Source of the DNA: a virus
Taxonomy: Duplodnaviria > Heunggongvirae > Uroviricota > Caudoviricetes
Reading direction: 5' to 3' (one strand)
IMG/VR virus record: IMGVR_UViG_2872158770_000007
DNA length: 29,095 nt
Of the stretch, positions 1 through 23,388 are shown in pieces (within the stretch, counting starts at the first letter, position 1; each line of letters opens with the position of its first letter). A program made the position numbers and the translations under genes. The notes below the pieces were generated by a model. That model had not been told where the DNA came from. It saw only the letters and a list, made by a program, of their open reading frames with translations, and did not search any database.

Positions 1-795
1 TCATAGAATAGGAGAGTAAATTTCCACCTCAGGGTAATAAGCTCTAAGGTAATTTATAAGACCTTCATAAGCATTAAGAAGAGATATTTTATGTGAAATC
101 AAATCTTGTTCTATTATCAGTGCTTTATCGGATGGTAGCTCATCATAATTGAAATGACAAAGAAGATTATGATTCGCACCACCAAACACCTGAATGTTTC
201 TATTATCGGAAATCGGCAAATGTCCAGATATGATAAAATCAATATTTTTATACGAATCAATAAAACTTTGGAAATGACCGTGGAGTAATTTATCATTTAA
301 AGGATAGCTCGCTGGAAAATCCCTTAAAATACTATCAAACTGATCTCCAAAAATAAGAAGATTGATGTGAAAAGAATTAGGTAAAGTTTCAACTAATGAA
401 CGTACCCTCGCAAACGGTGTAAAGTGGAAGTAAGCGTTTAAAAAGTCCACATCTGACTGTCTTTTTTTATCTGAAAATAATGTATTATCGGTTGCACCCT
501 GTATATAAGCCTCATGTTCACTTTTGATTTGATGCAATTTTTCTACTGTATAAGTGAATGGATCTCTATCAACAAGAATATGATCATTTGCACAAAGCAG
601 GATAAGATTTTCATAAGAATTGTCATTTGCTAACAGGTCATCGCCCCTTGGTCCTTTTGGGCTTTTGGCTATTACATGAGCCATTTGTCCGATGTGAACC
701 TGCTCTTTAAAAAGAGAAGTTCGGCAAATATTACATTGCCCAGCGGATAGTCCATACAATTTTTTTATTGCTGCTGTAGTAATTGCATCACTCAT
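1..795 (-). CDS. HNH endonuclease-domain protein (N-terminal HNH, C-terminal ~170 aa domain of unknown function)
   Basis: 264-aa ORF complete within the window (stop at 1-3). N-terminal CNICRTSL...HVIAKSPKGPRGDD...NLILLCANDH matches the HNH/His-Me finger pattern (Cys pair, His, Asn, Cys-x-x-x-His). The C-terminal half has no motif I recognise. Confidence 0.6.
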   Translation of the reverse strand: MSDAITTAAIKKLYGLSAGQCNICRTSLFKEQVHIGQMAHVIAKSPKGPRGDDLLANDNSYENLILLCANDHILVDRDPFTYTVEKLHQIKSEHEAYIQGATDNTLFSDKKRQSDVDFLNAYFHFTPFARVRSLVETLPNSFHINLLIFGDQFDSILRDFPASYPLNDKLLHGHFQSFIDSYKNIDFIISGHLPISDNRNIQVFGGANHNLLCHFNYDELPSDKALIIEQDLISHKISLLNAYEGLINYLRAYYPEVEIYSPIL

Positions 796-855
796 AAATC
801 AAATCCTTAGATTGCTATTTTATTAACTCAAAACACATATTAAAGGAAAAATCTT

Positions 856-1149
856 TCAGCTTCCACCAACCATAATCAATAGCACTTGCAAAAGTTGTCC
901 TAATGGAACTTGGATCACAATAATTCCAAAAGCATCAAGTACTGGTACTATGATCCAGTTATAGAGAATGATAAGGGTTAGTACAAAACCGAGGGCATTA
1001 CGCCAGTGGAATGTTACCTTTTCAATCTCTTCTTTATTCGTTTCAATCTGCCCTTCTACATTCGTTTTCTTTACTTCCTGTTCAATAGTTTTCTTCTTAA
1101 TGAAAAAATCCAATCCTGACTTCAGAAACTCAATCAATATACTAATCAT
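856..1149 (-). CDS. small membrane protein (charged N-terminal half, two C-terminal hydrophobic segments)
   Basis: 97-aa ORF. K/E-rich N-terminus followed by ALGFVLTLIILYNWIIVPVL and FGIIVIQVPLGQLLQVLLIMVGG hydrophobic stretches. Overlaps the next ORF start by 4 nt, suggesting translational coupling. Confidence 0.35.
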   Translation of the reverse strand: MISILIEFLKSGLDFFIKKKTIEQEVKKTNVEGQIETNKEEIEKVTFHWRNALGFVLTLIILYNWIIVPVLDAFGIIVIQVPLGQLLQVLLIMVGGS

Positions 1150-1457
1150 TCAATAATCCCCACGGCATATACCCAAAAATGTTTACCCTTCACAAAGAGC
1201 TTTTTACTCTCAATTAGAAATACAGGCATCTTTTCACCCTGTAATTCCCATTCAAGTACTTCACCAACTTTGAAATCTTTCTTCTTCTCATAAATAACGT
1301 TCATATAGCTATCAATCTGATAATTACTTTTCTTAACGACCTTTTGAAATTTCTTATCAAGAAAACATTTGTTAATTGGCATACTATTACCATCTGGTGT
1401 CATGCCATTTAGCTTAATCTTGCTTATTAAATCACCATAATGTTGCTCAAAATTCAT
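1146..1457 (-). CDS. hypothetical protein
   Basis: 103-aa ORF, same strand and tightly packed with its neighbours. No recognisable motif. Confidence 0.4.
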   Translation of the reverse strand: MNFEQHYGDLISKIKLNGMTPDGNSMPINKCFLDKKFQKVVKKSNYQIDSYMNVIYEKKKDFKVGEVLEWELQGEKMPVFLIESKKLFVKGKHFWVYAVGIIE

Positions 1458-1532
1458 TGTCTACTTATCCTGAATGTTCCCTGAATACCGCTCATAATTA
1501 CCCTTACACCATCATTGGCTTCCTTATAGAAG

Positions 1533-2033
1533 TCAATAGATAAGGCGACGTTGTTTCTTCTCACGTAAGCCAATTACACGTTTGGTTTTCTTCTTGGTAT
1601 CTTTCTTTGCGGTATCAATTAATCGTTCTTTACCATTCTTACCCTTCACTACCTTATATCGTTCACTTAAAAGATTCTTTTTCAGTCCTGAAATGTTGCC
1701 CTGCTTAGTTAATCTTGTAGATGAAGTAGGTATAAACTTATCAATTGCCTTTGGCTGTACCAGTACTTGATAAAGGTACTTAGCCTGAATATCTTTAACC
1801 ATGATGGTCGATGTAACTGAATTTCTCCCAACCTTTCTATAGAAGAAAAGGATGGAACGTTGAGTAAAGCCCACTGCCCCACGGTCAACGCTATTATTCA
1901 AATCACCCTGCATTCTTTGGGATAGTAGCTTGGAACGTTTAATTATTTCATTCTGGAATTGATTATTTAATCTAACTCCCTGCGTTTGTATATAGTTCCT
2001 TATACTACCAATCCCATTTATTCCACTTGCCAT
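1533..2033 (-). CDS. hypothetical protein with highly basic C-terminal tail
   Basis: 166-aa ORF. The C-terminus KKDTKKKTKRVIGLREKKQRRLIY is strongly basic, suggesting nucleic-acid binding. No catalytic motif recognised. Confidence 0.4.
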   Translation of the reverse strand: MASGINGIGSIRNYIQTQGVRLNNQFQNEIIKRSKLLSQRMQGDLNNSVDRGAVGFTQRSILFFYRKVGRNSVTSTIMVKDIQAKYLYQVLVQPKAIDKFIPTSSTRLTKQGNISGLKKNLLSERYKVVKGKNGKERLIDTAKKDTKKKTKRVIGLREKKQRRLIY

Positions 2034-2042
2034 ATATTTACC

Positions 2043-2477
2043 TCAATTCAAGTACTCCAATAGTTCCTGTACTATTCCGAGTAGTCTTTTTTTATCCTTT
2101 GCATTTGGTGATCTAATCTTACTCATCATTGCCAGATTCAAACATTCCGGTTTAAGCATCTGATGAAGGATCAGTATTGCCTCTACAATCATTACCTCTC
2201 GCATAGTTGCGAAGCACCATAGAATCGTTTTTGAGTACTGTTCACCATTTTCAATTTTGTTTTTAACGACATTGGAACTACTGAGGTACTCACGCCAGCC
2301 ATTTTCCTTTGAAGTGGGCTTTAGCTTTCTCGCATCCTTAACCCGCTGATAGATTTGCTTAGCACCGACATAATTAGAACCATCCTCAAACTGAAAGATA
2401 TAAACGAAACCAGCATATTCACCGGATAACATTTCCTCCTCGCTCCAATCATCCGAGTATTTCCATTCACTCATCAT
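2043..2477 (-). CDS. putative GIY-YIG-like nuclease domain protein
   Basis: 144-aa ORF. GFVYIFQFEDGSNYVGAKQ has the Y-I-F ... Y-V-G spacing (about 10 residues) typical of the GIY-YIG motif, followed by a conserved Arg. Weak, motif-level only. Confidence 0.35.
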   Translation of the reverse strand: MMSEWKYSDDWSEEEMLSGEYAGFVYIFQFEDGSNYVGAKQIYQRVKDARKLKPTSKENGWREYLSSSNVVKNKIENGEQYSKTILWCFATMREVMIVEAILILHQMLKPECLNLAMMSKIRSPNAKDKKRLLGIVQELLEYLN

Positions 2478-2513
2478 AAATATTCCTATAAATTCATTAT
2501 AGGTATTTAGTAA

Positions 2514-2963
2514 ATGAGCGATTTAAAAACACGATTAAAAGAATATGAAGGTACTAAAGAGTATCAGGCAAATTTGAAGTACTTCAGAAATGGGAAATTC
2601 TATCCATATGCTGATAGTTTAGGATGTAGTACTATTGTATATGGTCACTTAATTCAGGCGGGAGAAGATTTTAGTACTGGCATTACTGAAAGCGAAGCAG
2701 ACAAGTTACTATCTCGCGATTTAGCCAAAACAATTATGCAGGTACAGACATTAGGGTTAAATCTTCCCGATGACTGGAATGATTTTATTATTATCATGAC
2801 CTTCCAGTTAGGTATTGGCGGGGTGAAGAAATTCCGTAAGATGTTAGCAGCCCTGAAAGCACATGATTACCTTGAAGCAATTAAACAGGCTAAGTGTTCT
2901 CTATGGTACAGGCAGACACCAAACCGTGTGAATTCCATGATTGCAGTACTTAAAAACAAATAA
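2514..2963 (+). CDS. phage lysozyme (endolysin), T4 lysozyme-like glycoside hydrolase family 24
   Basis: 149 aa. Collinear with T4 lysozyme: YEG (Glu11 equivalent), YADSLG (Asp20), STIVYGH (Thr26), ITESEADKLLSRDL versus T4 ITKDEAEKLFNQDV, and C-terminal SLWYRQTPNRVNSMIAVL versus T4 SRWYNQTPNRAKRVITTF. Confidence 0.9.
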   Translation: MSDLKTRLKEYEGTKEYQANLKYFRNGKFYPYADSLGCSTIVYGHLIQAGEDFSTGITESEADKLLSRDLAKTIMQVQTLGLNLPDDWNDFIIIMTFQLGIGGVKKFRKMLAALKAHDYLEAIKQAKCSLWYRQTPNRVNSMIAVLKNK

Positions 2964-2969
2964 AGAAAA

Positions 2970-3004
2970 GGCATAGTACGAATGACATACTATGCCTTTT
3001 TTTA
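2970..3004. terminator. bidirectional rho-independent terminator between convergent genes
   Basis: Perfect 9-bp stem ggcatagta / tactatgcc (2970-2978 and 2988-2996), 9-nt loop, then a T-run on the plus strand 2997-3003. An A-run (aaaagaaaag) precedes it, giving a U-tract for the minus-strand transcript. Confidence 0.7.
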
Positions 3005-3274
3005 TGGTCGTTGTTTCTGCTGAAGAATTGCAATAATCCTTTCAATCTTAACATCAAGTTCATGGATTTGTGTTTCCAGTTTACTTAGTGTATCTCTCAT
3101 CTTATCCTGATCATCCTCAATACGGGAAATACTACTTTCCAGTACAGCAATGGTAGTTTCAAGAGTAGCAACGCGAGTTAATAGATCATTCGTATCCTTT
3201 GTATTATCTCTAAAGATAGTATAAAGGAATACGCATCCAGAAATAACAAGAGCTAAAATAGCACCGATATCCAT
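3002..3274 (-). CDS. membrane-anchored coiled-coil protein (spanin-like or holin-like; function unproven)
   Basis: 90 aa. N-terminal hydrophobic segment AILALVISGCVFLYTIF followed by a heptad-like charged region (LETTIAVLESSISRIEDDQDKMRDTLSKLETQIHELDVKIERIIAILQ). AAGGGA-like Shine-Dalgarno about 8 nt upstream of the ATG. Confidence 0.4.
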   Translation of the reverse strand: MDIGAILALVISGCVFLYTIFRDNTKDTNDLLTRVATLETTIAVLESSISRIEDDQDKMRDTLSKLETQIHELDVKIERIIAILQQKQRP

Positions 3275-3287
3275 ACTGAAATCCCTT

Positions 3288-3338
3288 TGTTGTTATTGTT
3301 ATTGTTATTGTTATTGTTATTGTTATTGTTTTTGTATT
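3288..3338. repeat. hexanucleotide microsatellite (TGTTAT)n: 6 perfect units at 3291-3326 plus degenerate flanking units
   Basis: Direct reading: tgttat x6 followed by tgtttt and tgtatt. It occupies nearly the whole 59-bp spacer between the stop of the 218-aa gene (3334-3336) and the RBS/start of the 90-aa gene (3274). Confidence 0.9.
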
Positions 3339-3993
3339 AATACCCTGTAAATGTCGCCAATGCTATCTGGATACCATTATTCCCCATTGCCTGGCGGTAG
3401 GTTTTCTGGTTCTTTGAAACGTACTGTAGACTGAATGAAGTACTGGAATTACGCCTGATAACCAGACCAGAGTACCCAATTACTGTACCATCATCTGATA
3501 TGTTCCCCGGACATTGTGACCAGCAGAACCAGGGATCAGCTACTGGAGACGTTACCGTAATGGCAGTACTGAGATCGGTAGCCGCAGGTGCTGTCAAAAA
3601 TCCCCTGATACGTGGCATTGTTGCCGCTGATGCAGCAGACCAGATTAAAGTACCTTCTTCACTGAACACATCAAGAAAACCAGATGTGGGGGTAGCCGTG
3701 TGACTACTTGTCATGAACCTGCCCATGCCAGGCTGGAACATATAGGCACCAGGGAAACACCATGCCCCGTCTTTCTGTATCTGGAACCAGTACTGTGTTG
3801 TGTTCCTGTTAGCTACTACTGATGGCATAACGAAACCGAGCGATCCACCATTACCGAAGGCACAGGTAAAGCCTGTGTAGTATCCCGTATCAGTTAGATT
3901 TCCCATGGCCTTTACTGCACCCGTCATTATCGACTTGTTAGTACTATCTATAGTCAGTGCACCCGCTGAATTATATACCTCGAAACCTGCCAT
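3337..3993 (-). CDS. tail-associated hypothetical protein (paralogue of the adjacent 98-aa protein)
   Basis: 218 aa, immediately downstream of the J-like gene. N-terminus MAGFEVYNSAGALTIDSTNKSI aligns with MAQGLQCWNAAGVLVVDLTDYNI of the upstream gene. Gly/Thr/Ser-rich, beta-rich composition typical of fibre or receptor-binding proteins. Confidence 0.45.
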   Translation of the reverse strand: MAGFEVYNSAGALTIDSTNKSIMTGAVKAMGNLTDTGYYTGFTCAFGNGGSLGFVMPSVVANRNTTQYWFQIQKDGAWCFPGAYMFQPGMGRFMTSSHTATPTSGFLDVFSEEGTLIWSAASAATMPRIRGFLTAPAATDLSTAITVTSPVADPWFCWSQCPGNISDDGTVIGYSGLVIRRNSSTSFSLQYVSKNQKTYRQAMGNNGIQIALATFTGY

Positions 3994-3994
3994 C

Positions 3995-4291
3995 TTACGC
4001 CGTCCACTTATATACGTTAAAAGTGTAGTTACCAGCTAACGGTGCATATGTTGGCAAATAAACCGCAGTAAATGACCCATTATTACAAAAGGCTGACCAC
4101 TCATTAAAGGTATCACTGGCGGGGGCATAGTGTACAAACCAGCCTGTAGTTTTCATATTTGGTACTGATACAGTATAGGTCTGTGCAGAAGTAGCCTTGA
4201 CAGTATAAGTACCCATAAAACGTATGTTATAATCAGTCAGATCTACTACTAATACACCCGCTGCATTCCAACATTGTAATCCCTGTGCCAT
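3995..4291 (-). CDS. tail-associated hypothetical protein (short paralogue)
   Basis: 98 aa. Shares the N-terminal M-A-x5-N-x-A-G-x-L-x-x-D motif with the 218-aa gene. Its stop abuts the next start. Confidence 0.45.
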   Translation of the reverse strand: MAQGLQCWNAAGVLVVDLTDYNIRFMGTYTVKATSAQTYTVSVPNMKTTGWFVHYAPASDTFNEWSAFCNNGSFTAVYLPTYAPLAGNYTFNVYKWTA

Positions 4292-4448
4292 AGCTCTTAC
4301 TCCTGTAAATCCTTTTCTTCATTCCAATTGTTTCTTTTCCGCTAATACTGAATGGGTTAGTACTGGTACTATTGAAAGTACGTTCATTAGATTTCATTTA
4401 TGTATCCTTTTGAAATGAGGTTACAGTTAATAATCCCTGAATTATTTA

Positions 4449-9399
<4,951 letters not shown>

Positions 9400-9400
<1 letters not shown>

Positions 9401-10023
9401 TACTTGTATTTCCAGTTCTGATTTTGATTAACTTGACCTAACAGACTAAAGTACTCATCATTTCTATAGTAAGATTGATATACTGAGTTGGCGGCAATTA
9501 ATGCAGGTTGTCTGTCTAATTTCTTATAGACAGAATTCACATATATAGTCATTTCGTTTTGCTTCTGATTTGGATCAGTTACTGCCTGTACATAGTCAAT
9601 AAACCCCGTAAACATGAGCATTGAATCAATTACAGTACTATCATATGGATTGAGAATTACTAACTTGATATTCATCTGTGCATCTTTCAAGAAACCACCA
9701 AGGGCAAGAGCACGAACCGAGGCGTTTACATTGCTAATTTTAAAATTGATAGCATCATTAGACATGCCCTTTTGTTCAGAATATGAAGGTAATGAACCAC
9801 TGATAATGTCGGGGAAACTTATGTACTTATAACCATCCAGATCTATATCAATTAGTGAATCCGTCCAGTGAAAACCATTAGTACCTTTTGGTAGTACATC
9901 AAAACAAGTAACATTAACGCCTAAGCTCATAATTTCCATTAGTGTTAATCTTGTCTTGGTTGTACCTCTGACTAACTTCCAGTACTTAAGAAGATTAGCA
10001 TTAGTATATATACCTGAGTCCAT
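9400..10023 (-). CDS. minor tail protein, lambda gpL-like
   Basis: 207 aa, second gene after the tape measure. Weak collinearity with gpL. Start and stop overlap the neighbouring genes, suggesting coupling. Confidence 0.45.
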
Positions 10024-10580
10024 TAGATGATATTCTCCGTTGCTTTCAATGTAATATTCATGATGTTCCCAATAGGCAATGAATAATCATTGTCTGGATC
10101 TAATACAGCCTCGATCATGAGATTGTTATATTTGAGTGCTTCACTTGCCTGTACTGTATTTTGTAGAGCAGGGAAAATAGTAATTGAAGTACTGGTACGT
10201 TCTACGATTCGATATAGCTTATTGTGATTGGAAAACTGTACCCACTCACCCACAGCTAATGTGTTAGTACTGATAGGTACAACCATATTACCCGGTTTAG
10301 TGAGAGCAGTAGCGGTTACTGCACCAGTCTGTTTACCGTAATATGTACCTGCAAGCCCCAATGACATAGTGAAAGGTTTGCCCTGTGCATATTGAGCTAA
10401 AAAGCTATTCACTTCATTTAGTGATGCAGGATTAAAATTAAGGGTGAACTGAATTTGATAGTATTGAATTCCAGTACTTCTCATGATACGTTGACCTGTC
10501 CATGTTTGATTAGAATAGATCGGTTCAGTACTTTTAATTTGAAAGTTCGTTACTTTTATTTGATTTGAAAAGGATGCCAT
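10023..10580 (-). CDS. minor/distal tail protein, lambda gpM-like
   Basis: 185 aa, first structural gene after the tape measure module. Assignment is by position and weak motif similarity. Confidence 0.4.
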   Translation of the reverse strand: MASFSNQIKVTNFQIKSTEPIYSNQTWTGQRIMRSTGIQYYQIQFTLNFNPASLNEVNSFLAQYAQGKPFTMSLGLAGTYYGKQTGAVTATALTKPGNMVVPISTNTLAVGEWVQFSNHNKLYRIVERTSTSITIFPALQNTVQASEALKYNNLMIEAVLDPDNDYSLPIGNIMNITLKATENII

Positions 10581-10680
10581 TTTGTTACCTCGAATATCTT
10601 CTTTCTTTATTTATTTAAAAACCTCGATTCGTATTTTTTTTAACAGGCTTGATTGGCAGGCTGCATCCGTCATCGTTGCT

Positions 10681-11154
10681 ATGTTGTTATTTGCAGGCCA
10701 AATAGGCTATAACGCATATGATAAATGGAAAGAAAGTTCAGATGATGTTTTTAAGATGCGTGTAATCTTATTGAGCGAAATCAACAATAACCTTTTAGCT
10801 CTTGCTACTGGTGGCGATGAGTCTCAGGTGTTAGGCACATATGAAATATGTATTCCTCTTCCAACTGAAGATACAGAAGCTATTAAAAGAGTAGCAACTG
10901 CCGTTTCTTATTTGCATGATGATGTATATTATTCCCAATTAGAAAAATTAGCATCACTCCCAAAAAAAGAAGTAGATGCCATCGTAAAGAGTTATTATTC
11001 ATTATCGAGATTACGTACTCTTTCAACACAGCTTGCATACAATATTAAATACTCACCACCTAAAGTTAAATTATTGCGGGAAGAGTATTACAATCTCTAT
11101 ACCCTTTCATCTTCTCTTTCACAATATTTGTCTTATCACACGGAAAATCCCTAA
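10681..11154 (+). CDS. opposite-strand moron: hypothetical protein
   Basis: Only long ORF in the 585-bp gap between tape measure and gpM-like gene, on the opposite strand. The ATG at 10681 is preferred over the track's TTG at 10582, which abuts the divergent gene start. Predicted helical protein with no recognisable catalytic motif. Confidence 0.4.
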   Translation: MLLFAGQIGYNAYDKWKESSDDVFKMRVILLSEINNNLLALATGGDESQVLGTYEICIPLPTEDTEAIKRVATAVSYLHDDVYYSQLEKLASLPKKEVDAIVKSYYSLSRLRTLSTQLAYNIKYSPPKVKLLREEYYNLYTLSSSLSQYLSYHTENP

Positions 11155-11164
11155 CTGGGCTTTC

Positions 11165-13378
11165 TTATGTATTACGTTTTTGACTACTTCTCACAGCTTG
11201 AGAAACACTATTGGCGTGTTTCTTAAGCATCTCATTAAATTTCTTGTCATCATCAGCTACATCACCCTGGATGATCAATGGTGCGTTAACGGTAATATCA
11301 CCTGAAGTACTTCCACCTTCTTGTTTATCCAAGAATGCTGTTAATTTCTTATTCGCTTCAGGCTGCACCACTCTCTCGCCCTGCTTAAGTACAAATGATT
11401 TGTTGTCATAACTTGCTGGTAGTTCATCTACCCCGCCATGGAACTGACCAGCAGCAGCACCCTTTGCAGTACTAATAATCGACATACCAAGTGAAAGTAC
11501 TTGTGCATAGTTTGCCAATGAAGCTGGCCAAGGGGTAGCGAGTGCTTGGGCCAATGCTGACTGAATTGAAAGTACTGTCTGTGCAATGCTTATGCTCTTA
11601 CTTAGGGTAAATGCAGCTTGTGCAGCCCCACTACTTTCCCCAAACGCATCAACCATGCCCTGTGATAGTGACTGTGCAGTACTTGAGAAGATACTTAACT
11701 GATCCTGTGCATTCTGGTTACTGATTTGGATGGCCTGTGCATTGTACTTTGCCGTGATCTCAGCTTTACGTTTCTCATAGTCCTCATGGCCTTTCAGCAA
11801 CAACTCATTCTGCTGAAGTTCAGCATTCATAGCATCAGCGTTATCTTTCAACTTCTGATCGGTATCGTTATAGGCTAATGGATTACCACCATTGATACGC
11901 TGATTCTGTTGCTGTGCCAGATACCCCTTCTGATTGTCATTGAGTAGACCGGAACCAATAAGAGCATTGGTATCTTTCAGACCCTGATTAGGATCTTGAT
12001 AACCAACCATTGAATTCAGTAAATCAGTACGTTGTTTAGCACCATATGCAGTAGCGTTCTTTAGCATTTCATCAGGATTGATACCGAGTACTTGAGCACT
12101 ATCGGTGATGGTTTTAAGAAGTGCCTTTTGTTGTCTGTCGAACTGCTGTAGACGTACCTGAAAACCATCTTCCCCAACTTGAGCAAGAGCAGCTTCCAGA
12201 TTACGTTGAGCCTGTAGGCGTTTTGCATCTGCCGCCTTTTGTGCCGCTTCTGCCTGTTTACGTTGTTGTTCTAACTTCTTCGCTGCATCTTCAGCTTCTT
12301 TTGCCTGATCAACCCATCCGCCAGTAGGAGCGGTAGCAACCGCAACATCGGACTTTAGGTTGTTTGCCAGTTCTTCTAAACGTGCCTTAGCCTGAGCGAA
12401 CTCATTACCCTTGTTGCCCTTATCATCCATGATGCCAGTATTGAGTGCTGCACCCTGGTAGTTTAATGCCCCTGCTGTACGTAATTTTTCCCAGATATCC
12501 AACATATCCTGTAGAGAACCCTTGGAAGTTTTAATACGTTCATTCAGATCTTCAAACAAACCTGCCTCGTGAGGTTTTTGATTTGCAGCATCATAGACAC
12601 TGTTCATGGCATTAACTAAAGGTGATAGGCCATCAGCAATAGTACCTTTAATGCTGGTAGTAAGTTTCCCAAGGTTTTTATCGAATTCAGCATATTTTTC
12701 AGCAGCATCATTAGTTACTTCAGCATTTTGTGACTGGATATAGGCTGTAGCTTGAGCCTCATTATTGAACTGCTGAAGAGTACTAATCATGTGGCTTGAG
12801 TCACTGGCTAACGTTTCCATTACGTTAACTATTTCACTCTGTGATTTACCTGCATCACGCATGGCGTAAAAGGTGTGGATCACAGCCTGCATACCACCAT
12901 CAGCCTGTTTTAAGTACTTGTTATAGTCCTGTAGGTTGAGTCCATATTCTTTAAGATCATCGGATACACCACCGCCAGCACGAAAAGCATCACCGAGCTT
13001 ATCCAAGGTATCCTTGTTGAAATCACCAAACTTATCAATCTCAAGACCGAGGCCACTAAACGCCGCTGATAGCTGTTGTAACTGAACCACGGACAATCCG
13101 GTACTCTTACTGATCTGGTTCATTTCACGCACATATTCACGTGATGATTCTACTAATGCTGCCAGGCCACCAATACCAATAGCCGCAGCACCCGCGATCC
13201 CGGTCATAGCAGTACCGAACCCGCCAGCCATACCAGTTATTCGGCCTGTGAACTCTTCAACAATGCCACCAGCAGTACTACCAAATTCCTCTAATGATTC
13301 AGTACCAGACCTTAAAGCACGCTGTAAACCGGAAGAATCACCCGTAATATCTACACGTATTCTATTATTATTTGCCAT
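11165..13378 (-). CDS. tail tape measure protein
   Basis: 737 aa. Gly/Ala-rich N-terminal region (GMAGGFGTAMTGIAGAAAIGIGGLAAL) and long coiled-coil Q/A/K-rich repeats, directly downstream of the G/GT chaperone pair. Length implies a long non-contractile tail. Confidence 0.85.
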   Translation of the reverse strand: MANNNRIRVDITGDSSGLQRALRSGTESLEEFGSTAGGIVEEFTGRITGMAGGFGTAMTGIAGAAAIGIGGLAALVESSREYVREMNQISKSTGLSVVQLQQLSAAFSGLGLEIDKFGDFNKDTLDKLGDAFRAGGGVSDDLKEYGLNLQDYNKYLKQADGGMQAVIHTFYAMRDAGKSQSEIVNVMETLASDSSHMISTLQQFNNEAQATAYIQSQNAEVTNDAAEKYAEFDKNLGKLTTSIKGTIADGLSPLVNAMNSVYDAANQKPHEAGLFEDLNERIKTSKGSLQDMLDIWEKLRTAGALNYQGAALNTGIMDDKGNKGNEFAQAKARLEELANNLKSDVAVATAPTGGWVDQAKEAEDAAKKLEQQRKQAEAAQKAADAKRLQAQRNLEAALAQVGEDGFQVRLQQFDRQQKALLKTITDSAQVLGINPDEMLKNATAYGAKQRTDLLNSMVGYQDPNQGLKDTNALIGSGLLNDNQKGYLAQQQNQRINGGNPLAYNDTDQKLKDNADAMNAELQQNELLLKGHEDYEKRKAEITAKYNAQAIQISNQNAQDQLSIFSSTAQSLSQGMVDAFGESSGAAQAAFTLSKSISIAQTVLSIQSALAQALATPWPASLANYAQVLSLGMSIISTAKGAAAGQFHGGVDELPASYDNKSFVLKQGERVVQPEANKKLTAFLDKQEGGSTSGDITVNAPLIIQGDVADDDKKFNEMLKKHANSVSQAVRSSQKRNT

Positions 13379-13730
13379 TCTTTTTCTTTCCTAATACCTG
13401 AGATTTAATTAACTCCCCTATAGATTTAATATCATTGGATTGAGCCTCTTTAGTTTTTAATTTTCTTTCTTCAGCTTTCTCTGAAGTACTCTTAGTACTA
13501 TCACTAAGCACATCAAGAAAATCAAAATCCTGTACCTTGATACTTTTCCTTGCTTCTGGTGTTAGGTTGCCATTACTGATAGTGGTGTAGTAACACTGGT
13601 ACGCATGTTTCATCATTTCAATCTGCGTACCGGATGGTTCTATAAAAGTATCGTAGATCATAAGCATATTGAGTACATCAGGATCTAAACTAAAGTATTC
13701 TTCAGGTGATAAGCCTCTTTTGTTAACCAT
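13368..13730 (-). CDS. tail assembly chaperone T-like segment, expressed as G-T fusion by -1 frameshift
   Basis: 120-aa ORF in the -1 frame relative to the upstream G-like ORF. Translation across the junction in the -1 frame is open (KKVRGDIELKYFCKMVNKRG...). Confidence 0.55.
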   Translation of the reverse strand: MVNKRGLSPEEYFSLDPDVLNMLMIYDTFIEPSGTQIEMMKHAYQCYYTTISNGNLTPEARKSIKVQDFDFLDVLSDSTKSTSEKAEERKLKTKEAQSNDIKSIGELIKSQVLGKKKNGK

Positions 13731-13762
13731 CTTACAAAAGTACTTTAATTCGATATCACCTC

Positions 13763-14074
13763 TTACTTTTTTTCTACTTCATCTACAGGTTTCGCAGTAT
13801 TGATTAAAGCAATAATTGCTGAGTAAATTTCATTCTGGATTACAAAATCAATAGAGTTAACATTAATTCGTCCATCAATATCTTCTTCTGCGAAGATAGG
13901 ATCACCATTTTCATCTTTTACACATAGGATTAGAGTTTTAGCCACATCAGTGCATTTCTGGAAATCCTGACCATTTGGACGATGAATAAAGATGATTTCA
14001 CCCATTACTTCATGTGGTTTTAATTCTGGTTGTAGTTTTTTCTTCAATTCGTTTAAATTCATTTTCATCTCCAA
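13763..14074 (-). CDS. tail assembly chaperone, lambda gpG-like
   Basis: 103-aa acidic protein between the major tail gene and the tape measure. Ends ...VEKK at a slippery heptamer. Confidence 0.6.
   Translation of the reverse strand: MEMKMNLNELKKKLQPELKPHEVMGEIIFIHRPNGQDFQKCTDVAKTLILCVKDENGDPIFAEEDIDGRINVNSIDFVIQNEIYSAIIALINTAKPVDEVEKK
13766..13772 (-). promoter_or_regulatory. programmed -1 ribosomal frameshift site A AAA AAG (dnaX-type) at the end of the G-like ORF
   Basis: Minus strand reads gta gaa aaa aag taa. Plus strand carries c-ttttttt-c at 13766-13774. The stop codon follows immediately; the -1 frame is open into the T-like ORF. Confidence 0.6.
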
Positions 14075-14107
14075 TAAAAAAGGGAAAGTTGAGCACCTTC
14101 CCTTTAT
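14075..14107 (-). terminator. rho-independent terminator/attenuator after the major tail tube gene
   Basis: Minus-strand RNA: aaagggaagg-ugcucaa-cuuucccuu followed by a U-run (plus-strand A-run 14075-14080). Imperfect ~8-bp GC-containing stem. Confidence 0.55.
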
Positions 14108-14113
14108 TTATTA

Positions 14114-14587
14114 TTATTCGCCCGATTCTGGTTTTGGAGTAATCAGACCTGAATCAATTGCTTCACCATCAACTGCAAGGGTGAAAGTCTTAGTTACTAC
14201 TTCATCTTTATCACCACCGATAGTGGTACTTGAAACAAAGCAGGTATAAATTACAAAGAAACCTTCTTTTTTAGTTGCATCGGTAAAATAGCTTAGTTTT
14301 ACCTGACAACGTTTCTGATCGTCTGCAAGTTGTTCTAAATTCTGATGTACTGCATTATCTGGTAAGTAGTTAACTGCAAGAGAAATGTCCGGGATTGACT
14401 TAGTACCCAATAGCTTACGATCATAAGCATTATTGAATGTTTTTACGCTAATTACAGTACTTTCAAAGCCTGAAGTACTGAAGGTGTTTACCTCTGGTAC
14501 TTCTACAAAGTCAGTAGCAACTGTTTTACCAGCACTTGAACCTACTTCTACAGTAAGGTTAGCACCGGAAAAAATATCCATAGCCAT
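14114..14587 (-). CDS. major tail tube protein
   Basis: 157 aa, immediately upstream of the G/GT chaperones (conserved position of the major tail protein). Followed by a terminator. N-terminal ~145 aa paralogous to the N-terminus of the 883-aa protein. Confidence 0.65.
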   Translation of the reverse strand: MAMDIFSGANLTVEVGSSAGKTVATDFVEVPEVNTFSTSGFESTVISVKTFNNAYDRKLLGTKSIPDISLAVNYLPDNAVHQNLEQLADDQKRCQVKLSYFTDATKKEGFFVIYTCFVSSTTIGGDKDEVVTKTFTLAVDGEAIDSGLITPKPESGE

Positions 14588-14645
14588 AGTTTTATATCCT
14601 TATAAGAAAATTTTATTGGAGTGAATCCGTTCACCCCGTTTATAT

Positions 14646-17297
14646 TTATTTATTATTTAATAGCTGTTGTACTAAATCTTTTAGCTGATTAATTTCTTCT
14701 TGTTGGGCTTGAATAGCTCCCATCAAGTCCATCACTATTGGATTTAAATCAACACGTGGATGATCACGAGTGACAATCTCCCCTTCTATTTCAACTGTTT
14801 CTTCATCATGCTTAATGTACTGCGGAGCAGTCAACTCAGCATCTTCGGCGATAACACCAAACCTAACCCTTTCTTGTTCATCATCCTTGTAGATAAACGT
14901 TACTAAATCTTGTGACATTATCCGATCTAATGCTTCAACTGGATTTGCTGGAGTTATGTCTCTTTTAAACTCACGACCTGATGTACCTTGAGCTTGCATT
15001 ACTAACCATCCAAACCATGTTGTACCGTTCCCGCCTCGTACTCTTAAAGTACCACCACCGTCTATCTGAAGCTGAGAGCGATTTGCCCCTGGGTATCTTT
15101 GCATGTGCAATAAAGGGGAATATTTTTCACTATAGTTAATACCTGAGTCACCTGGCCCTGCATACATACCGTTAAAGGTGATGGTATTGGCATCTGTCGG
15201 TCCCGAAACAGCGGTATTAGTCATCCATCCTGATTGAACATCAGTTAGGATCGTTCCAGTCGGCCCTTTTAGCCCCCATAGTTTATCCTCTGCACCATTT
15301 TCAGAAATAAAAAGGGTGAGATCAGCCTGTCCAGTCTGTCCCATCGTTTTACCAACCCGAAAACCACCAGATATTTCAGTTGATGTACCAATGTTGCATA
15401 TCGAACGAATACGCCCTCCAGTTACATAACTACCAATTGCCGTAGAGGAAGGGGAAGAAGCAATAACATCCCATTGAGGACTAACTGAAGTACGACTACT
15501 CAGCAAGTTTTCAACCCAGCGTTTGGTAGTCGCGTCAGAATCAGAGACAGGATCTCCTGCTAAAGAAGTTGCACCCGTAGGACGAATCGCAGGCCATAAC
15601 TCAGCCTGAGTCTTAACACCAGTACCGCCCTGCGGAATTGCTAATGCTTTCCAGCCAGTGAAAGCACCCGCAATATATGTAGCTGAACCCCATTGCCCTC
15701 CATCATAAACCACTAATGCAGCGGAAGAATCAGCGGATTTAATAGTTGTTAAATTACTACCTTGATTAAAGCGATCCACCTGAAAGTTTAGGCGAGCACT
15801 CAAAGCATCTGTAGCCCCTGTCCCCCCCTGACCTATACCTAAAGCAATCCATCCAGTACCAGTACTTGCACCCCATGCCCCGTTATCCTGAATTCGGATA
15901 CGGTTAGTCAGGTCATTACTCATCAGATCGGTGTACGTAGCACCCTGAGTCAAACGGTTCACCTGTAGGTTAGTACGTGCTGTAGAGAGACTGGATAGAT
16001 CAGAAAGGTTACTCGCTTTCTTCATGGAAGCGGAATCAAGGGAAGTAATACTGTCAGCTAAAGCCGTTACCTCTGCATCTACTTCATCCATTGAGTAAAC
16101 AGCAAGGTTAATACGTGCTTCTTCCACGTCCCCCAGATCACTTAGATTACCTGCTATCGTAAGCTGGGCATCATCTGTAACCTTCCCTAAGCCAACATCA
16201 GTACTGGTAAGTACTACATCCTCACTGAGTACATGACCGTTGACCATACGTGTATCAGGTACTGAACCTGTATCTTCACTACTCAGTACTACATTTTCAC
16301 TAAGTACATGACCGTTCACTGTACGCGTGTCAGGTACTGAACCTGTATCTTCACTACTCAGTACTATATCTTCACTGAGTACATGACCATTAACTGTCCG
16401 TGTATCTGGTACAGAGCCGGTATCAGTACTGGTAAGTACTACATCCTCACTTAGAGGCTTACCATTCACAGTACGTGTATCAGGTACTGAACCTGTATCT
16501 TCACTGTTCAGTACTAAATTGGCCGTGAGTGCATGGCCGTTGATGGTACGTGTAAGGGGTACGTATCGCCCGTCCATCTGTGTAGCGGTATATATGCGTG
16601 TCCAGGCGGTTGTAGCGTTCTTTGCATAGATACTTAGAGTACCCGTCTTTGTCATCGCAAGAGAACTTACAGTAGTGCCATCTACAAGCCCTACTCCCAT
16701 CAGATCCGCCCCGGCAGGATTGCCTGCTTGAGATGATGGTACTTTGATGAAGCTGTTACCCGTAGGTACTGATGGTGAGTACTGAGGTACATCCGTAGTG
16801 TTCGAACCTAAACCGTAGTCCCCCTGATAGATTGGCGATAGTGCGTTAATGGTCATTGCACGTGCGATCACATCATGTGGGGCAAAACTGTATGCCTTGG
16901 TTACTACTGAACCTTTATCACCGTCCAACTTATAAGAGGTGATATAACCATTCACCATCGCATAAGTAATGGTATTTTCATCCTTATTCATCTGGTACTG
17001 AATGATGATCTGGAAAAGCTGCTGAGACTTAGCGGCATTATCCAAGAATTGATGTGTAGGATCATCAGGTAGGTAGTTAACTACAATATCAAATGGTGCT
17101 ACTGATTTATCAGATAGTAGTACTGTCCTGTAATCACTATCATACGTTTCAAAATTATTTGCTTCTGAATTTATTGTTAAGGTTGGAAAAGTATTAATCT
17201 GTTTAATTACTACATTGCCTGCTCCCTGTGGTGTTCTGTTACCAATATCAGCATTATACTGTACTGATAATTCTCTTCCTGAGAAAATATCACTCAT
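14646..17297 (-). CDS. tail-tube-domain protein fused to a repeat-containing fibre with C-terminal intramolecular chaperone (peptidase S74-like) domain
   Basis: 883 aa. Residues 1-150 align with the 157-aa tail tube protein (DIFSG..L.V, NTF.T, VNYLPDD..HQ.L, GDK..VVTK). Five tandem 25-aa repeats (PDTRTVNGHVLSEDVVLSSEDTGSV). Phage-fibre motifs GQGGTGATDALSARLNFQV and PQGGTGVKT. C-terminus SGREFKRDITP...RFGVIAEDAEL...QEEINQLKDL resembles the self-cleaving chaperone of tail fibres and endosialidases. Confidence 0.6.
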   Translation of the reverse strand: MSDIFSGRELSVQYNADIGNRTPQGAGNVVIKQINTFPTLTINSEANNFETYDSDYRTVLLSDKSVAPFDIVVNYLPDDPTHQFLDNAAKSQQLFQIIIQYQMNKDENTITYAMVNGYITSYKLDGDKGSVVTKAYSFAPHDVIARAMTINALSPIYQGDYGLGSNTTDVPQYSPSVPTGNSFIKVPSSQAGNPAGADLMGVGLVDGTTVSSLAMTKTGTLSIYAKNATTAWTRIYTATQMDGRYVPLTRTINGHALTANLVLNSEDTGSVPDTRTVNGKPLSEDVVLTSTDTGSVPDTRTVNGHVLSEDIVLSSEDTGSVPDTRTVNGHVLSENVVLSSEDTGSVPDTRMVNGHVLSEDVVLTSTDVGLGKVTDDAQLTIAGNLSDLGDVEEARINLAVYSMDEVDAEVTALADSITSLDSASMKKASNLSDLSSLSTARTNLQVNRLTQGATYTDLMSNDLTNRIRIQDNGAWGASTGTGWIALGIGQGGTGATDALSARLNFQVDRFNQGSNLTTIKSADSSAALVVYDGGQWGSATYIAGAFTGWKALAIPQGGTGVKTQAELWPAIRPTGATSLAGDPVSDSDATTKRWVENLLSSRTSVSPQWDVIASSPSSTAIGSYVTGGRIRSICNIGTSTEISGGFRVGKTMGQTGQADLTLFISENGAEDKLWGLKGPTGTILTDVQSGWMTNTAVSGPTDANTITFNGMYAGPGDSGINYSEKYSPLLHMQRYPGANRSQLQIDGGGTLRVRGGNGTTWFGWLVMQAQGTSGREFKRDITPANPVEALDRIMSQDLVTFIYKDDEQERVRFGVIAEDAELTAPQYIKHDEETVEIEGEIVTRDHPRVDLNPIVMDLMGAIQAQQEEINQLKDLVQQLLNNK
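16180..16560. repeat. tandem 75-bp direct repeats (about 5 copies) inside the fibre gene
   Basis: The unit tcaggtactgaacctgtatcttcact... recurs at 16255, 16330, (variant) 16405 and 16480. It encodes the 25-aa protein repeat. Confidence 0.85.
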
Positions 17298-17314
17298 CCT
17301 TTATATCCTTTTAG

Positions 17315-17706
17315 TTATCTTGTCTTTTCCGTAACTTGAATATTTATCGTAAAGGATAGGGAAACCGAGCCAGTTATAGGATCTGTGACAATATCGGATT
17401 GTTCATAAGAACACGAAAGCATTATTAAACCTGCATCACTGAATGCTGAAGTTTTCTCTTTATCAAAAGTACTAATAATCTGATCATAAGTGATGGATGG
17501 GGCTGTATTACCTGATTCTGGTTTAGGGGAAATCAGATACTGAATTGCAAAGTTACCTGCCCGGCGTTCATTGCTGAAACTTAAACTCGTTAATGAGTAA
17601 TCAAAAGCAATTTGTTCAAATACATCAACATCACGTGATACTGTCAGATTCTTAGTAGCATTGATAAGCTGCTTCATCGTATTCCGTACTTTTTGTACTA
17701 ACATCA
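17315..17706 (-). CDS. hypothetical head-tail joining protein
   Basis: Located between capsid and tail genes. Start moved to the ATG at 17706, just after the upstream stop; the track's N-terminal 26 residues overlap the previous gene in another frame. Confidence 0.35.
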
Positions 17707-17708
17707 TA

Positions 17709-18032
17709 TTAGTAGTCCTCTGCAAATGAAGCACCAGCAGAAGTACGGAAATAGCAATTAACCATACCTGATAGATCATCTTCAATGTTATAGATTGTCT
17801 GGTTTACACCATCAATGATTAGTACTGTACCAATTGCCACGTTTGCGGTTATTAGATCGTCCTTTCTGATTGTTAGGTATGTTTCCACGCTTTCGATAAA
17901 TCCACCTGCCGCCTCAATAGAAACGGGAAGTACTTCTACTATTCCTGTAAAAGTACTTCCCGTACAAGTTTGGATAGACTGACCGAAAGCATTTAGAAAC
18001 GCATCACACTGCGTATCTTTAAATACTCTCAT
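17709..18032 (-). CDS. hypothetical head completion/connector protein
   Basis: 107-aa ORF immediately downstream of the capsid gene. Assignment is positional only. Confidence 0.35.
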   Translation of the reverse strand: MRVFKDTQCDAFLNAFGQSIQTCTGSTFTGIVEVLPVSIEAAGGFIESVETYLTIRKDDLITANVAIGTVLIIDGVNQTIYNIEDDLSGMVNCYFRTSAGASFAEDY

Positions 18033-18045
18033 TATCTAATCCTTA

Positions 18046-23388
<5,343 letters not shown>

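What the first reader, a model, noticed from the sequence alone, without database searches (positions are those of the whole stretch)
16180..16560. Five near-identical 75-bp tandem repeats inside the fibre gene
The repeats are in frame (25 aa each), so recombination between them would lengthen or shorten the fibre without breaking the reading frame. This is a ready-made mechanism for length variation of a surface-exposed virion appendage.
Basis: seen in the sequence. Interest (0 to 1): 0.45.

Follow-up and report, generated by a model that had tools for sequence, protein, structure and literature searches.

The report
Variable-number shaft repeats in tube-anchored fibre
Five in-frame 25-amino-acid repeats form the start of the shaft of a prophage tail fibre, their number differs among related prophages (0 to 5), and the fibre is unusual because its anchoring end is a duplicated copy of the phage's own tail-tube protein.

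Summary
Five tandem 75-bp units lie at window 16176-16550 on the minus strand. They are in frame (aa 250-374) in an 883-aa gene (14646-17297). They are not "near-identical": pairwise nt identity is 64-89%.

The unit is a fibre-shaft motif, consensus RT[VI]NGKxLSx[ND]IxLTxxD[VI]G..VT. It matches no Pfam fibre-repeat family and no solved structure.

Copy number at this exact position varies among about 180 relatives from 0 to 5, and 1 is commonest. The first and last units are orthologous across genes. Internal units are gained and lost.

Two Shigella sonnei assemblies carry a clean 75-bp deletion allele. Its junction lies in the longest identical block (37 nt). More than 230 other S. sonnei contigs keep five units. 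So the repeats allow slow, stepwise, frame-preserving length change. They are not a hypervariable switch.

I infer, but have not shown, that the fibre is anchored by co-assembly into the tail tube. I found no published precedent.

The parts
14646..17297 (-). 883-aa fibre gene: tube-like domain, small beta domain, 5 repeats, shaft/knob, S74 chaperone
   Evidence: ORF and translation. PHROG tail-fibre families match at E 1e-34 to 1e-37. The sequence is 100% identical to S. sonnei 'tail fiber domain-containing protein'.
16848..17297 (-). aa 1-150: tail-tube-protein paralogue domain, the presumed virion anchor
16551..16847 (-). aa 151-249: conserved small beta domain between tube domain and shaft; fold unassigned
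   Evidence: This is the most conserved part of the family (GNSFIKVP...GNP..AD..G...AWTRIYT). AF2 predicts five strands with pLDDT ~78. Foldseek aligns full-length lambda gpV (tube plus Ig-like domain) over 245-271 columns, but at rmsd 11 A, so the equivalence to the Ig-like domain is only loose.
16176..16550 (-). five tandem 75-bp / 25-aa shaft units (aa 250-374)
   Evidence: The unit consensus was derived from 32 non-redundant units.
16255..16366 (-). two copies of a 37-nt identical block (16255-16291 and 16330-16366) in units 3 and 2; site of the 75-bp deletion junction in the 4-unit allele
   Evidence: Searches give the block positions. One search gives the alignment with L002. A 34-nt identical block also links units 0 and 3 (16247-16280 and 16472-16505).
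15000..16175 (-). aa 375-766: rest of the shaft and distal, presumably receptor-binding, region; mosaic among relatives
   Evidence: Relatives diverge after the repeats. Similarity to T5-like L-shaped tail fibre proteins (DT57C LtfB, PDB 8hqz) at aa 563-607. tblastn hits to many coliphage fibres. AF2 confidence is low.
14649..14999 (-). aa 767-883: Peptidase_S74 intramolecular chaperone / auto-processing domain; Ser773 and Lys778 in the S-x4-K spacing
   Evidence: Pfam PF13884 scores 34.1 bits against a cut-off of 22. DT57C LtfB 8hqz matches at i-Evalue 7e-32 for this domain, with SGREFK aligned to SGIEYK. Foldseek hits the MyRF ICA domain 7dc3. AF2 pLDDT is ~88.
14114..14587 (-). 157-aa major tail (tube) protein gene, the parent paralogue, 58 nt downstream of the fibre gene
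   Evidence: Pfam Phage_tail_3 PF08813 scores 34 bits against a cut-off of 24.2. phrog_158 matches. Both genes carry the same AAGGATATAAA ribosome-binding context. A terminator-like hairpin follows at 14105-14079.

Best explanation
The five 75-bp units encode five copies of a 25-residue shaft module. They sit at the proximal end of a trimeric tail fibre that depends on a C-terminal S74 chaperone. Each unit behaves as an autonomous cassette.

Unequal homologous recombination or replication slippage between units adds or removes whole 25-residue cassettes without breaking the frame. The units share exact blocks of 26-37 nt. The fibre shaft therefore changes length in steps over evolutionary time.

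The rate is low. The units have diverged to 64-89% identity, and the exact blocks are close to the ~25-bp minimum needed for RecA-dependent recombination (my own knowledge: Shen and Huang 1986).

The fibre itself is an accessory side fibre. Its N-terminal 150 residues are a duplicated tail-tube protein. I infer that three tethered tube domains per trimer are built into, or onto, the tail tube, instead of wrapping round it as a collar. The repeats then set how far the receptor-binding end reaches from that anchor.

What is shown:
- the repeat anatomy;
- copy-number variation among relatives;
- the deletion allele;
- the tube fold and the paralogy;
- the conserved gene order;
- the S74 domain.

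What is inferred:
- the trimeric shaft structure of the repeat;
- the physical length change;
- the place and stoichiometry of the fibre in the virion.
For: - **Anatomy and frame:**
- **Copy number at the same position:** 0-5 units in 121 cluster representatives and in 87 loci.
- **Which units vary:** the first and last units are orthologous across genes, while the number of internal units varies. L022's internal units are 92-97% identical.
- **Deletion allele:** a 4-unit allele with its junction in the 37-nt identical block, in a gene otherwise 100% identical.
- **Any integer from 0 to 5 occurs.** This argues that a unit is a self-contained module.
- **The unit occurs elsewhere.** It is found alone further down the shaft in relatives, and in the tail fibres of Vibrio, Aeromonas and Microbacterium phages (PHROG fibre and tail families).
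- **Monomer prediction:** the AF2 monomer gives pLDDT below 50 for the repeats. This would be expected if the segment folds only as an intertwined trimer, but low confidence alone does not establish that.
- **S74 domain** with the Ser-Lys spacing.
- **Tube paralogy and fold:**
- **Gene order:** the fibre gene lies directly upstream of the tube gene in 65 of 71 loci with enough upstream sequence and in all 7 species-level genomes.
- **The fibre is accessory.** Four more distant members of the lineage (tube protein 53-54% identical) have the same neck genes and tube gene but no fibre gene.
- **Anchoring precedent:** in Ur-lambda, three N-terminal anchor domains are tethered by flexible linkers to one trimeric side fibre (PMC12617516).
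Against: - There is no structure for the repeat. A profile of the unit finds nothing significant in the PDB (best E 0.11, a gp12 short tail fibre). The claim that a unit adds length is therefore an assumption.
- Within S. sonnei the 5-unit allele is essentially fixed: contig counts of 101, 131 and 3 for the 883-aa variants against 2 for the 858-aa allele.
- The 858-aa allele could be an assembly shortcut through the 37-nt identical block. Many short-read contigs break exactly at the repeats, for example a 249-aa partial protein.
- No virion of this lineage has been imaged. Only one distant phage record (DCP80, 25% identity) has the N-terminal module.
- Six tube domains per ring do not map simply onto trimeric fibres.
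- In this window the prophage is decaying. IS911 sits in the tail-tip module, and the gene is split in about 22 S. sonnei contigs. Nothing is being selected here now.
Confidence: 0.72

Rival explanations
1. The repeats are a hypervariable (contingency-type) locus. Copy number would change often enough to create fibre-length heterogeneity within a single phage or lysogen population.
For: The units are in frame and tandem, and share exact blocks of 26-37 nt. One copy-number variant is seen within S. sonnei.
Against: The units are only 64-89% identical. More than 230 S. sonnei contigs carry the identical 5-unit allele, against 2 with four units. No 6-unit or 2-3-unit S. sonnei allele was among the 15 listed of 92 cluster members. 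The one variant may be an assembly artefact.
Confidence: 0.07
2. The repeats are an ordinary, fixed structural domain. The five units would fold together, for example into Ig-like beta-sandwich domains, and the apparent copy-number differences would be alignment noise between non-homologous shafts.
For: The isolated repeat region scores 31.7 bits (cut-off 24.4) to Pfam GldM_2nd, an Ig-like domain. It also matches PorM weakly in the PDB, E 0.01.
Against: Relatives with 96% identical flanks differ by exactly two units. First and last units align as orthologues at 76-97% nt identity, while internal units differ in number. Every integer from 0 to 5 occurs. The S. sonnei variant differs by exactly 75 bp. 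The GldM hit did not appear when the full protein was scanned, and AF2 does not fold the region as a domain.
Confidence: 0.08
3. The units are binding modules, not mere spacers. Each 25-aa unit would contribute a weak glycan or surface contact, so copy number tunes avidity and not reach.
For: Tube-attached decorations in other siphophages are adhesive; the SPP1 gp17.1* FN3 domain is proposed to interact transiently with carbohydrates (PMC8718954). The lambda gpV Ig-like domain is a comparable tube decoration (own knowledge). The units have invariant N4, G5, L8 and D18 and acidic, threonine-rich faces.
Against: The motif lies at the virion-proximal end of the fibre. The same motif is scattered through the shafts of unrelated fibres. 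There is no similarity to a carbohydrate-binding family. Weakly and without correction for relatedness, proteins with more units have a shorter remainder (rho -0.36), which fits a length budget better than avidity.
Confidence: 0.1
4. The tube-like N-terminal domain does not enter the tube wall. It would be a docking domain bound elsewhere (on the distal tail protein or tail tip, or at the neck as whiskers), or the protein would be a non-virion remnant.
Against: 31% identity to the phage's own tube protein, with the same ribosome-binding context, points to a recent duplicate that probably keeps tube-tube contacts. Relatives without the fibre gene keep the same two small neck genes, so the fibre does not replace a terminator or adaptor. 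The gene is conserved, intact and syntenic in 65 of 71 loci.
Confidence: 0.3

Closest known systems
T5-family L-shaped tail fibres (T5 pb1; DT57C LtfA/LtfB, PDB 8hqz) and other S74-chaperone fibres and spikes
   Same: Both have a C-terminal Peptidase_S74 intramolecular chaperone with the S-x4-K spacing. The match is E 1e-40 to DT57C LtfB overall and 7e-32 for this domain. Both have a trimeric modular shaft and mosaic distal parts shared with many coliphage fibres.
   Different: T5-type fibres dock on a separate 12-mer collar protein (p132 or LtfC) wrapped round the tube (PMC12617516). Here the N-terminus is itself a tube-protein paralogue. The 25-aa tandem array is not matched in 8hqz.
Lambda side tail fibre Stf (Ur-lambda)
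   Same: Both are accessory side fibres of a siphophage. In Stf, three N-terminal anchor domains are tethered by short linkers to one trimeric fibre, which projects from the distal tube and speeds adsorption (PMC12617516).
   Different: The Stf anchor (aa 1-91) is a six-stranded sheet plus a helix. It forms a dodecameric collar outside the gpV/gpM junction. The stf gene lies after J, and Stf needs the separate assembly protein Tfa (own knowledge). Here the anchor has a tube fold, the gene lies immediately upstream of the tube gene, and the chaperone is built in.
Decorated or extended major tail proteins (lambda gpV Ig-like domain; SPP1 gp17.1* FN3 extension by frameshift; lactococcal and streptococcal tail-protein extensions)
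   Same: A tube-fold domain carries an outward-facing extension, and a minor long form coexists with a short tube protein. For SPP1 the ratio is 3:1 and the long form is dispensable (PMC8718954). Foldseek's best hits are full-length gpV.
   Different: Those extensions are single small globular domains. The long forms made by frameshifting come from the same gene as the short form. Here a separate paralogous gene (31% identity) carries a ~730-aa trimeric fibre with its own chaperone.
In-frame repeat-number variation in phage fibres and anti-receptors (for example collagen-like Gly-X-Y repeats in lactococcal and streptococcal phage host-specificity proteins)
   Same: Tandem in-frame repeats in a fibre gene act as substrates for recombination that changes fibre length or swaps distal modules. 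The comparison rests on my own knowledge; I did not check it against a paper here.
   Different: The repeat here is a 25-residue beta-type motif, not collagen-like. The units are diverged. Variation is seen between prophages and not within populations.

Membership tests
Peptidase_S74 / intramolecular-chaperone (ICA) fibre and spike proteins | C-terminal S74 domain scoring above Pfam's gathering threshold | tested here: met
   PF13884 scores 34.1 bits against a cut-off of 22, at aa 774-822. Foldseek matches the MyRF ICA domain 7dc3.
Peptidase_S74 / intramolecular-chaperone (ICA) fibre and spike proteins | Catalytic Ser-Lys dyad (S-x4-K) at the cleavage site | tested here: met
   Ser773 and Lys778 (TSGREFK) align with SGIEYK of DT57C LtfB. 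Homologues have SDIRLK and SDERAK. The identity of the dyad comes from my own knowledge of endosialidase and T5 pb1.
Peptidase_S74 / intramolecular-chaperone (ICA) fibre and spike proteins | Trimerisation and autocleavage of the chaperone | not testable with these tools
   This needs protein expression and SDS-PAGE or mass spectrometry.
Siphophage tail tube proteins (lambda gpV / Phage_tail_3-type fold) | Tube-protein fold | tested here: met
Siphophage tail tube proteins (lambda gpV / Phage_tail_3-type fold) | Sequence membership in a curated tube-protein family | tested here: inconclusive
   There is no Pfam tube family hit for aa 1-166 even at E 10. However, phrog_158 'major tail protein' matches at E 1e-16. 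The domain is also 31% identical (E 3e-21) to the adjacent protein, which passes PF08813.
Siphophage tail tube proteins (lambda gpV / Phage_tail_3-type fold) | Polymerises into the hexameric rings of the tube | not testable with these tools
   No multimer prediction or particle data are available. The protein is therefore filed as 'tube-protein paralogue', not as 'the tube protein'. The 157-aa neighbour occupies the canonical slot next to the chaperone genes.
Pfam phage fibre repeat families (PF22337 Phage_fiber_rpt; PF03406 Phage_fiber_2) | The repeat matches the family profile | tested here: not met
   PF22337 scores E 7 and 6.9 bits against a cut-off of 27. PF03406 is not reported even at E 10. 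NCBIfam gives no hit.
Hypervariable tandem-repeat (contingency / VNTR-type) loci | Near-identical units and copy-number heterogeneity among close isolates | tested here: not met
   The units are 64-89% identical. One variant allele occurs in 2 contigs, against more than 230 contigs with 5 units in S. sonnei.
Collar-anchored side fibres (lambda Stf, T5 pb1 with p132) | An N-terminal collar domain, or a separate collar protein, wrapped round the tube | tested here: not met
   The N-terminal domain has a tube fold, not the Stf-type sheet-plus-helix fold (PMC12617516). No collar-type gene was recognised in the window among the 20 tail and head ORFs scanned.

The most novel reading that the evidence does not exclude
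A lineage of Enterobacteriaceae siphoprophages anchors its side fibres in a way not yet described. The tube-protein gene was duplicated and fused to a modular, S74-chaperoned fibre. Fibre trimers are then built directly into one or more rings of the tail tube, not clamped on by a collar. The number of 25-residue cassettes next to the anchor tunes how far the receptor-binding tip reaches.
Probability: 0.4. Interest if true: 0.6.

Novelty: new variant of a known kind. Interest (0 to 1): 0.4.

Why it matters
In-frame repeat cassettes in fibre shafts are an expected way for phages to change fibre length. Here the idea is backed by comparative data: 0-5 cassettes at one fixed position, and a one-cassette deletion allele. 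That part is ordinary.

The more useful result concerns the gene that carries them. It belongs to a widespread prophage family, with more than 100 protein clusters at 90% identity across Escherichia, Shigella, Enterobacter, Klebsiella, Citrobacter and other genera. This family has almost no cultured phage representative. Its fibre anchor is a paralogue of the phage's own tube protein.

If such fibres are built into the tube, that would be another solution to the problem of attaching trimeric fibres to a six-fold tail. It would also offer a simple scaffold for engineering: a conserved 249-aa anchor, a variable spacer and a swappable tip. Finally, it would give annotators a reason to stop calling these proteins generic 'tail fiber domain-containing protein'.

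Tried and rejected
- **Megablast of the gene.** No match against 50,697 phage records or against complete E. coli genomes. The DNA is Shigella- or prophage-specific at this level.
- **NCBIfam.** No hit.
- **Pfam fibre-repeat families.** No hit.
- **Pfam GldM_2nd and PDB PorM similarity of the repeat region.** I judged this to be beta-strand motif resemblance. It is absent in the full-length scan, has marginal E values, and the region is not folded by AF2.
- **PDB sequence searches.** Searches with the repeat region and with a 33-unit profile found nothing significant. The best was E 0.11, to a gp12 short tail fibre.
- **AF2 monomer of the full protein.** The repeats and the distal half have pLDDT below 50, so there is no usable model of the shaft.
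- **Idea: the tube-like domain replaces a missing tail terminator or neck protein.** Rejected. Relatives without the fibre gene have the same two small genes between capsid and tube genes.
- **Idea: the 883-aa protein is the real tube protein.** Rejected. The 157-aa neighbour passes the Pfam tube family, lies next to the chaperone genes, and is more conserved (72-89% against 42-67%).
- **Length-compensation test.** More units go with a shorter remainder (rho -0.36). This is not corrected for relatedness, so it is only suggestive.
- **Six full-text literature searches.** None found a description of a tube-paralogue-anchored fibre or of this 25-aa repeat. Absence in that library is not proof of absence.
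Full report
**1. The observation**

Tandem Repeats Finder reports a 75-bp period at 16210-16516 (4.1 copies, 80% matches). It also reports a 150-bp super-period at 16210-16554. The repeat finder places copies in register every 75 bp.

The only long ORF here is on the minus strand: 14646-17297, 883 aa. Read on that strand there are exactly five 25-residue units, aa 250-374, at window 16176-16550:

| Unit | Sequence |
|---|---|
| 0 | RTINGHALTANLVLNSEDTGSVPDT |
| 1 | RTVNGKPLSEDVVLTSTDTGSVPDT |
| 2 | RTVNGHVLSEDIVLSSEDTGSVPDT |
| 3 | RTVNGHVLSENVVLSSEDTGSVPDT |
| 4 | RMVNGHVLSEDVVLTSTDVGLGKVT |

Pairwise nt identity is 64-89%, so 'near-identical' overstates it. Lag-75 self-identity over 300 nt is 74.7%, against a maximum of 37.7% in 100 shuffles. 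This is the strongest periodicity in the window. The longest exact blocks shared between units are 37 nt (units 2 and 3), 34 nt (units 0 and 3) and 26 nt (units 0 and 2).

**2. What the gene is**

- **It is a fibre gene.** PHROG tail-fibre families match the C-terminal two thirds.
- **It ends in a self-cleaving chaperone domain.** The C-terminus is a Peptidase_S74 intramolecular chaperone domain, 34.1 bits against a cut-off of 22. It is closely similar to the C-terminus of DT57C LtfB (PDB 8hqz). The S-x4-K motif (Ser773, Lys778) aligns.
- **The N-terminus is a tube-protein paralogue.** Residues 2-150 match phrog_158 'major tail protein'. They are 31% identical (E 3e-21) to the product of the next gene downstream. 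That gene is a 157-aa protein at 14114-14587 which passes Pfam's tube-protein family PF08813.
- **A small beta domain follows.** Residues 151-249 form a small five-strand beta domain with pLDDT ~78. It is the best-conserved part of the family, and I could not assign its fold.
- **Both genes start alike.** They begin behind the same AAGGATATAAA ribosome-binding context, as expected for a duplication.

The gene order on the minus strand is:
1. large terminase
2. a 176-aa head-tail joining protein
3. portal
4. protease-capsid fusion
5. two small genes
6. this fibre gene
7. tube protein
8. two chaperone genes
9. tape measure
10. distal tail protein
11. a J-like tip protein

**3. Where it comes from**

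The protein is identical to 'tail fiber domain-containing protein' of Shigella sonnei. The window has 40% G+C. It carries an IS911 in the tail-tip module, so this copy is a decaying prophage.

All 120 best protein homologues share the N-terminal 249 aa at 41-100% identity. Their remainders are mosaic. They come from Escherichia, Enterobacter, Klebsiella, Citrobacter, Cedecea, Scandinavium, Pluralibacter, Kosakonia and other genera. This is the usual pattern of a conserved virion anchor with a swappable receptor-binding end.

Of 50,697 phage records, only one has the module: DCP80, at 25% identity, with the same gene order. The capsid and tube proteins likewise have no close cultured relatives.

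In 7 species-level genomes and 80 IMG/VR contigs, the fibre gene lies directly upstream of the tube gene. The gap is typically 50-70 nt. It is larger when a small assembly-protein gene or a second fibre gene intervenes.

Searching from the tube protein instead gave 71 loci with enough upstream sequence:

| Loci | State of the fibre gene |
|---|---|
| 65 | fibre gene present |
| 2 | disrupted copies |
| 4 | no fibre gene, but the same two small upstream genes; these are the most distant (53-54% identity) |

So the fibre is an accessory insertion into the tail module. It is not a replacement for a neck or terminator protein.

**4. The repeats among relatives**

I built an HMM of the unit and counted the tandem run that starts at aa ~248-252.
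- In 121 cluster representatives the counts were 0 (6), 1 (56), 2 (25), 3 (7), 4 (1) and 5 (5).
- In the complete genes of the fetched loci they were 0 (17), 1 (45), 2 (14), 3 (3) and 5 (3).

The nearest non-Shigella relative (L012/P0003/P0135) is 96% identical in the anchor and has three units.

A unit-by-unit nt matrix shows that the first unit is orthologous across genes (window unit 0 to L012 unit 0 is 97%). The last unit is orthologous too (76-80%). The number of internal units differs: three here, one in L012, three in L022, none in L021 and L003. L022's internal units are 92-97% identical to each other, which indicates recent amplification or conversion.

Within S. sonnei the 883-aa allele dominates, with contig counts of 101, 131 and 3 for three point variants. 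An 858-aa allele occurs in two assemblies. Its DNA (L002) is 100% identical to the window outside a clean 75-bp deletion. The junction lies in the 37-nt block shared by units 2 and 3.

This is what unequal recombination or slippage would produce. An assembler short-cutting through the shared 37-mer would produce the same thing, and many short-read contigs do break at the repeats.

**5. What the unit is**

The consensus from 32 non-redundant units is RT[VI]NGK[AP]LS x [ND] I x L T x x D [VI] G .. V T. N4 is invariant, and G5, L8 and D18 are nearly so.
- Single copies recur further along the shafts of relatives.
- Similar arrays occur in the tail fibres of Vibrio, Aeromonas and Microbacterium phages.
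- It matches no Pfam or NCBIfam fibre repeat.
- It matches no solved structure by sequence.
- The AF2 monomer leaves it unfolded.

I therefore treat it as a trimeric shaft module whose fold is still unknown.

Proteins with more units tend to have a shorter remainder (Spearman -0.36). This test is not corrected for relatedness and is only a hint of a length budget.

**6. Mechanism**

*Shown:*
- in-frame cassettes;
- gain and loss of internal cassettes among relatives;
- a one-cassette deletion allele with its junction in the longest identical block.

*Inferred:*
- Each cassette adds a fixed increment to a trimeric shaft.
- The exact blocks of 26-37 nt are close to the ~25-bp minimum for RecA-dependent exchange (own knowledge). 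This, together with 11-36% divergence between units, would explain why change is rare.
- The fibre is anchored through its tube-protein domain.

For comparison, in Ur-lambda three N-terminal domains per Stf trimer are tethered by ~10-residue linkers. Twelve such domains form a collar outside the gpV/gpM junction. In T5 and DT57C a separate 12-mer collar protein does this job (PMC12617516). SPP1 mixes a short tube protein and a long, frameshift-extended one at 3:1, and the long form is dispensable (PMC8718954).

The present protein looks like a combination of the two ideas: a tube paralogue that carries a whole fibre. Which ring or rings it occupies, and how six-fold rings accommodate trimers, cannot be decided here.

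**7. Verdict**

It is not supported as a fast population-level switch. As a repeat phenomenon it is ordinary.

The gene's architecture is the more interesting result. I did not find it described in six full-text searches.

Noticed in passing
window ~7383-8642 (ORFs 8265-8603 and 7399-8238, minus strand): An IS911 (IS3 family) copy, 99.5-99.8% identical to E. coli copies. It is inserted in the tail-tip module just upstream of the J-like gene (4449-7469). The prophage in this window is probably defective.
   Followed up: partly
L169/L170 (S. sonnei GCA_900158015.1 and GCA_900160365.1), fibre gene: In about 22 S. sonnei contigs the same fibre gene is split into 567-aa and 286-aa ORFs, by a break after ...KTQAEL. 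Another allele (P0002, 622 aa, 15 contigs) carries a 54-aa internal duplication (MKKASNLSDL...AWGAST) before the same break. The gene is decaying in part of the population.
   Followed up: partly
window 3290-3335: A perfect-looking hexamer array (TTGTTA x 7.7, 97% matches) in the short gap between two minus-strand ORFs (3002-3274 and 3337-3993). Its function is unknown.
   Followed up: no
L001 (Escherichia phage DCP80, PQ671644.1) 1-18530: This 141-kb record is classified as a T4-like Gaprivervirus. It begins with a siphovirus-type head-tail module that has this lineage's gene order, including a 699-aa tube-paralogue fibre plus a second 745-aa fibre gene. The record may be chimeric or misassembled.
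   Followed up: no
window 14079-14105 (minus strand): A strong terminator-like hairpin (11-bp stem plus T run) lies right after the tube-protein gene and before the chaperone genes. No such signal lies between the fibre gene and the tube gene.
   Followed up: no
window 18046-19890 (minus strand): The capsid gene encodes a 614-aa fusion of a prohead protease (S78-type) and the major capsid protein. This fusion is conserved throughout the related loci.
   Followed up: no
L079, L084, L086-L089 (IMG/VR contigs): A distant sub-group has a short 561-aa tube-paralogue fibre, followed by about 2.9 kb of further genes before the tube gene. The anchor module can apparently carry different or additional fibre genes.
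   Followed up: no
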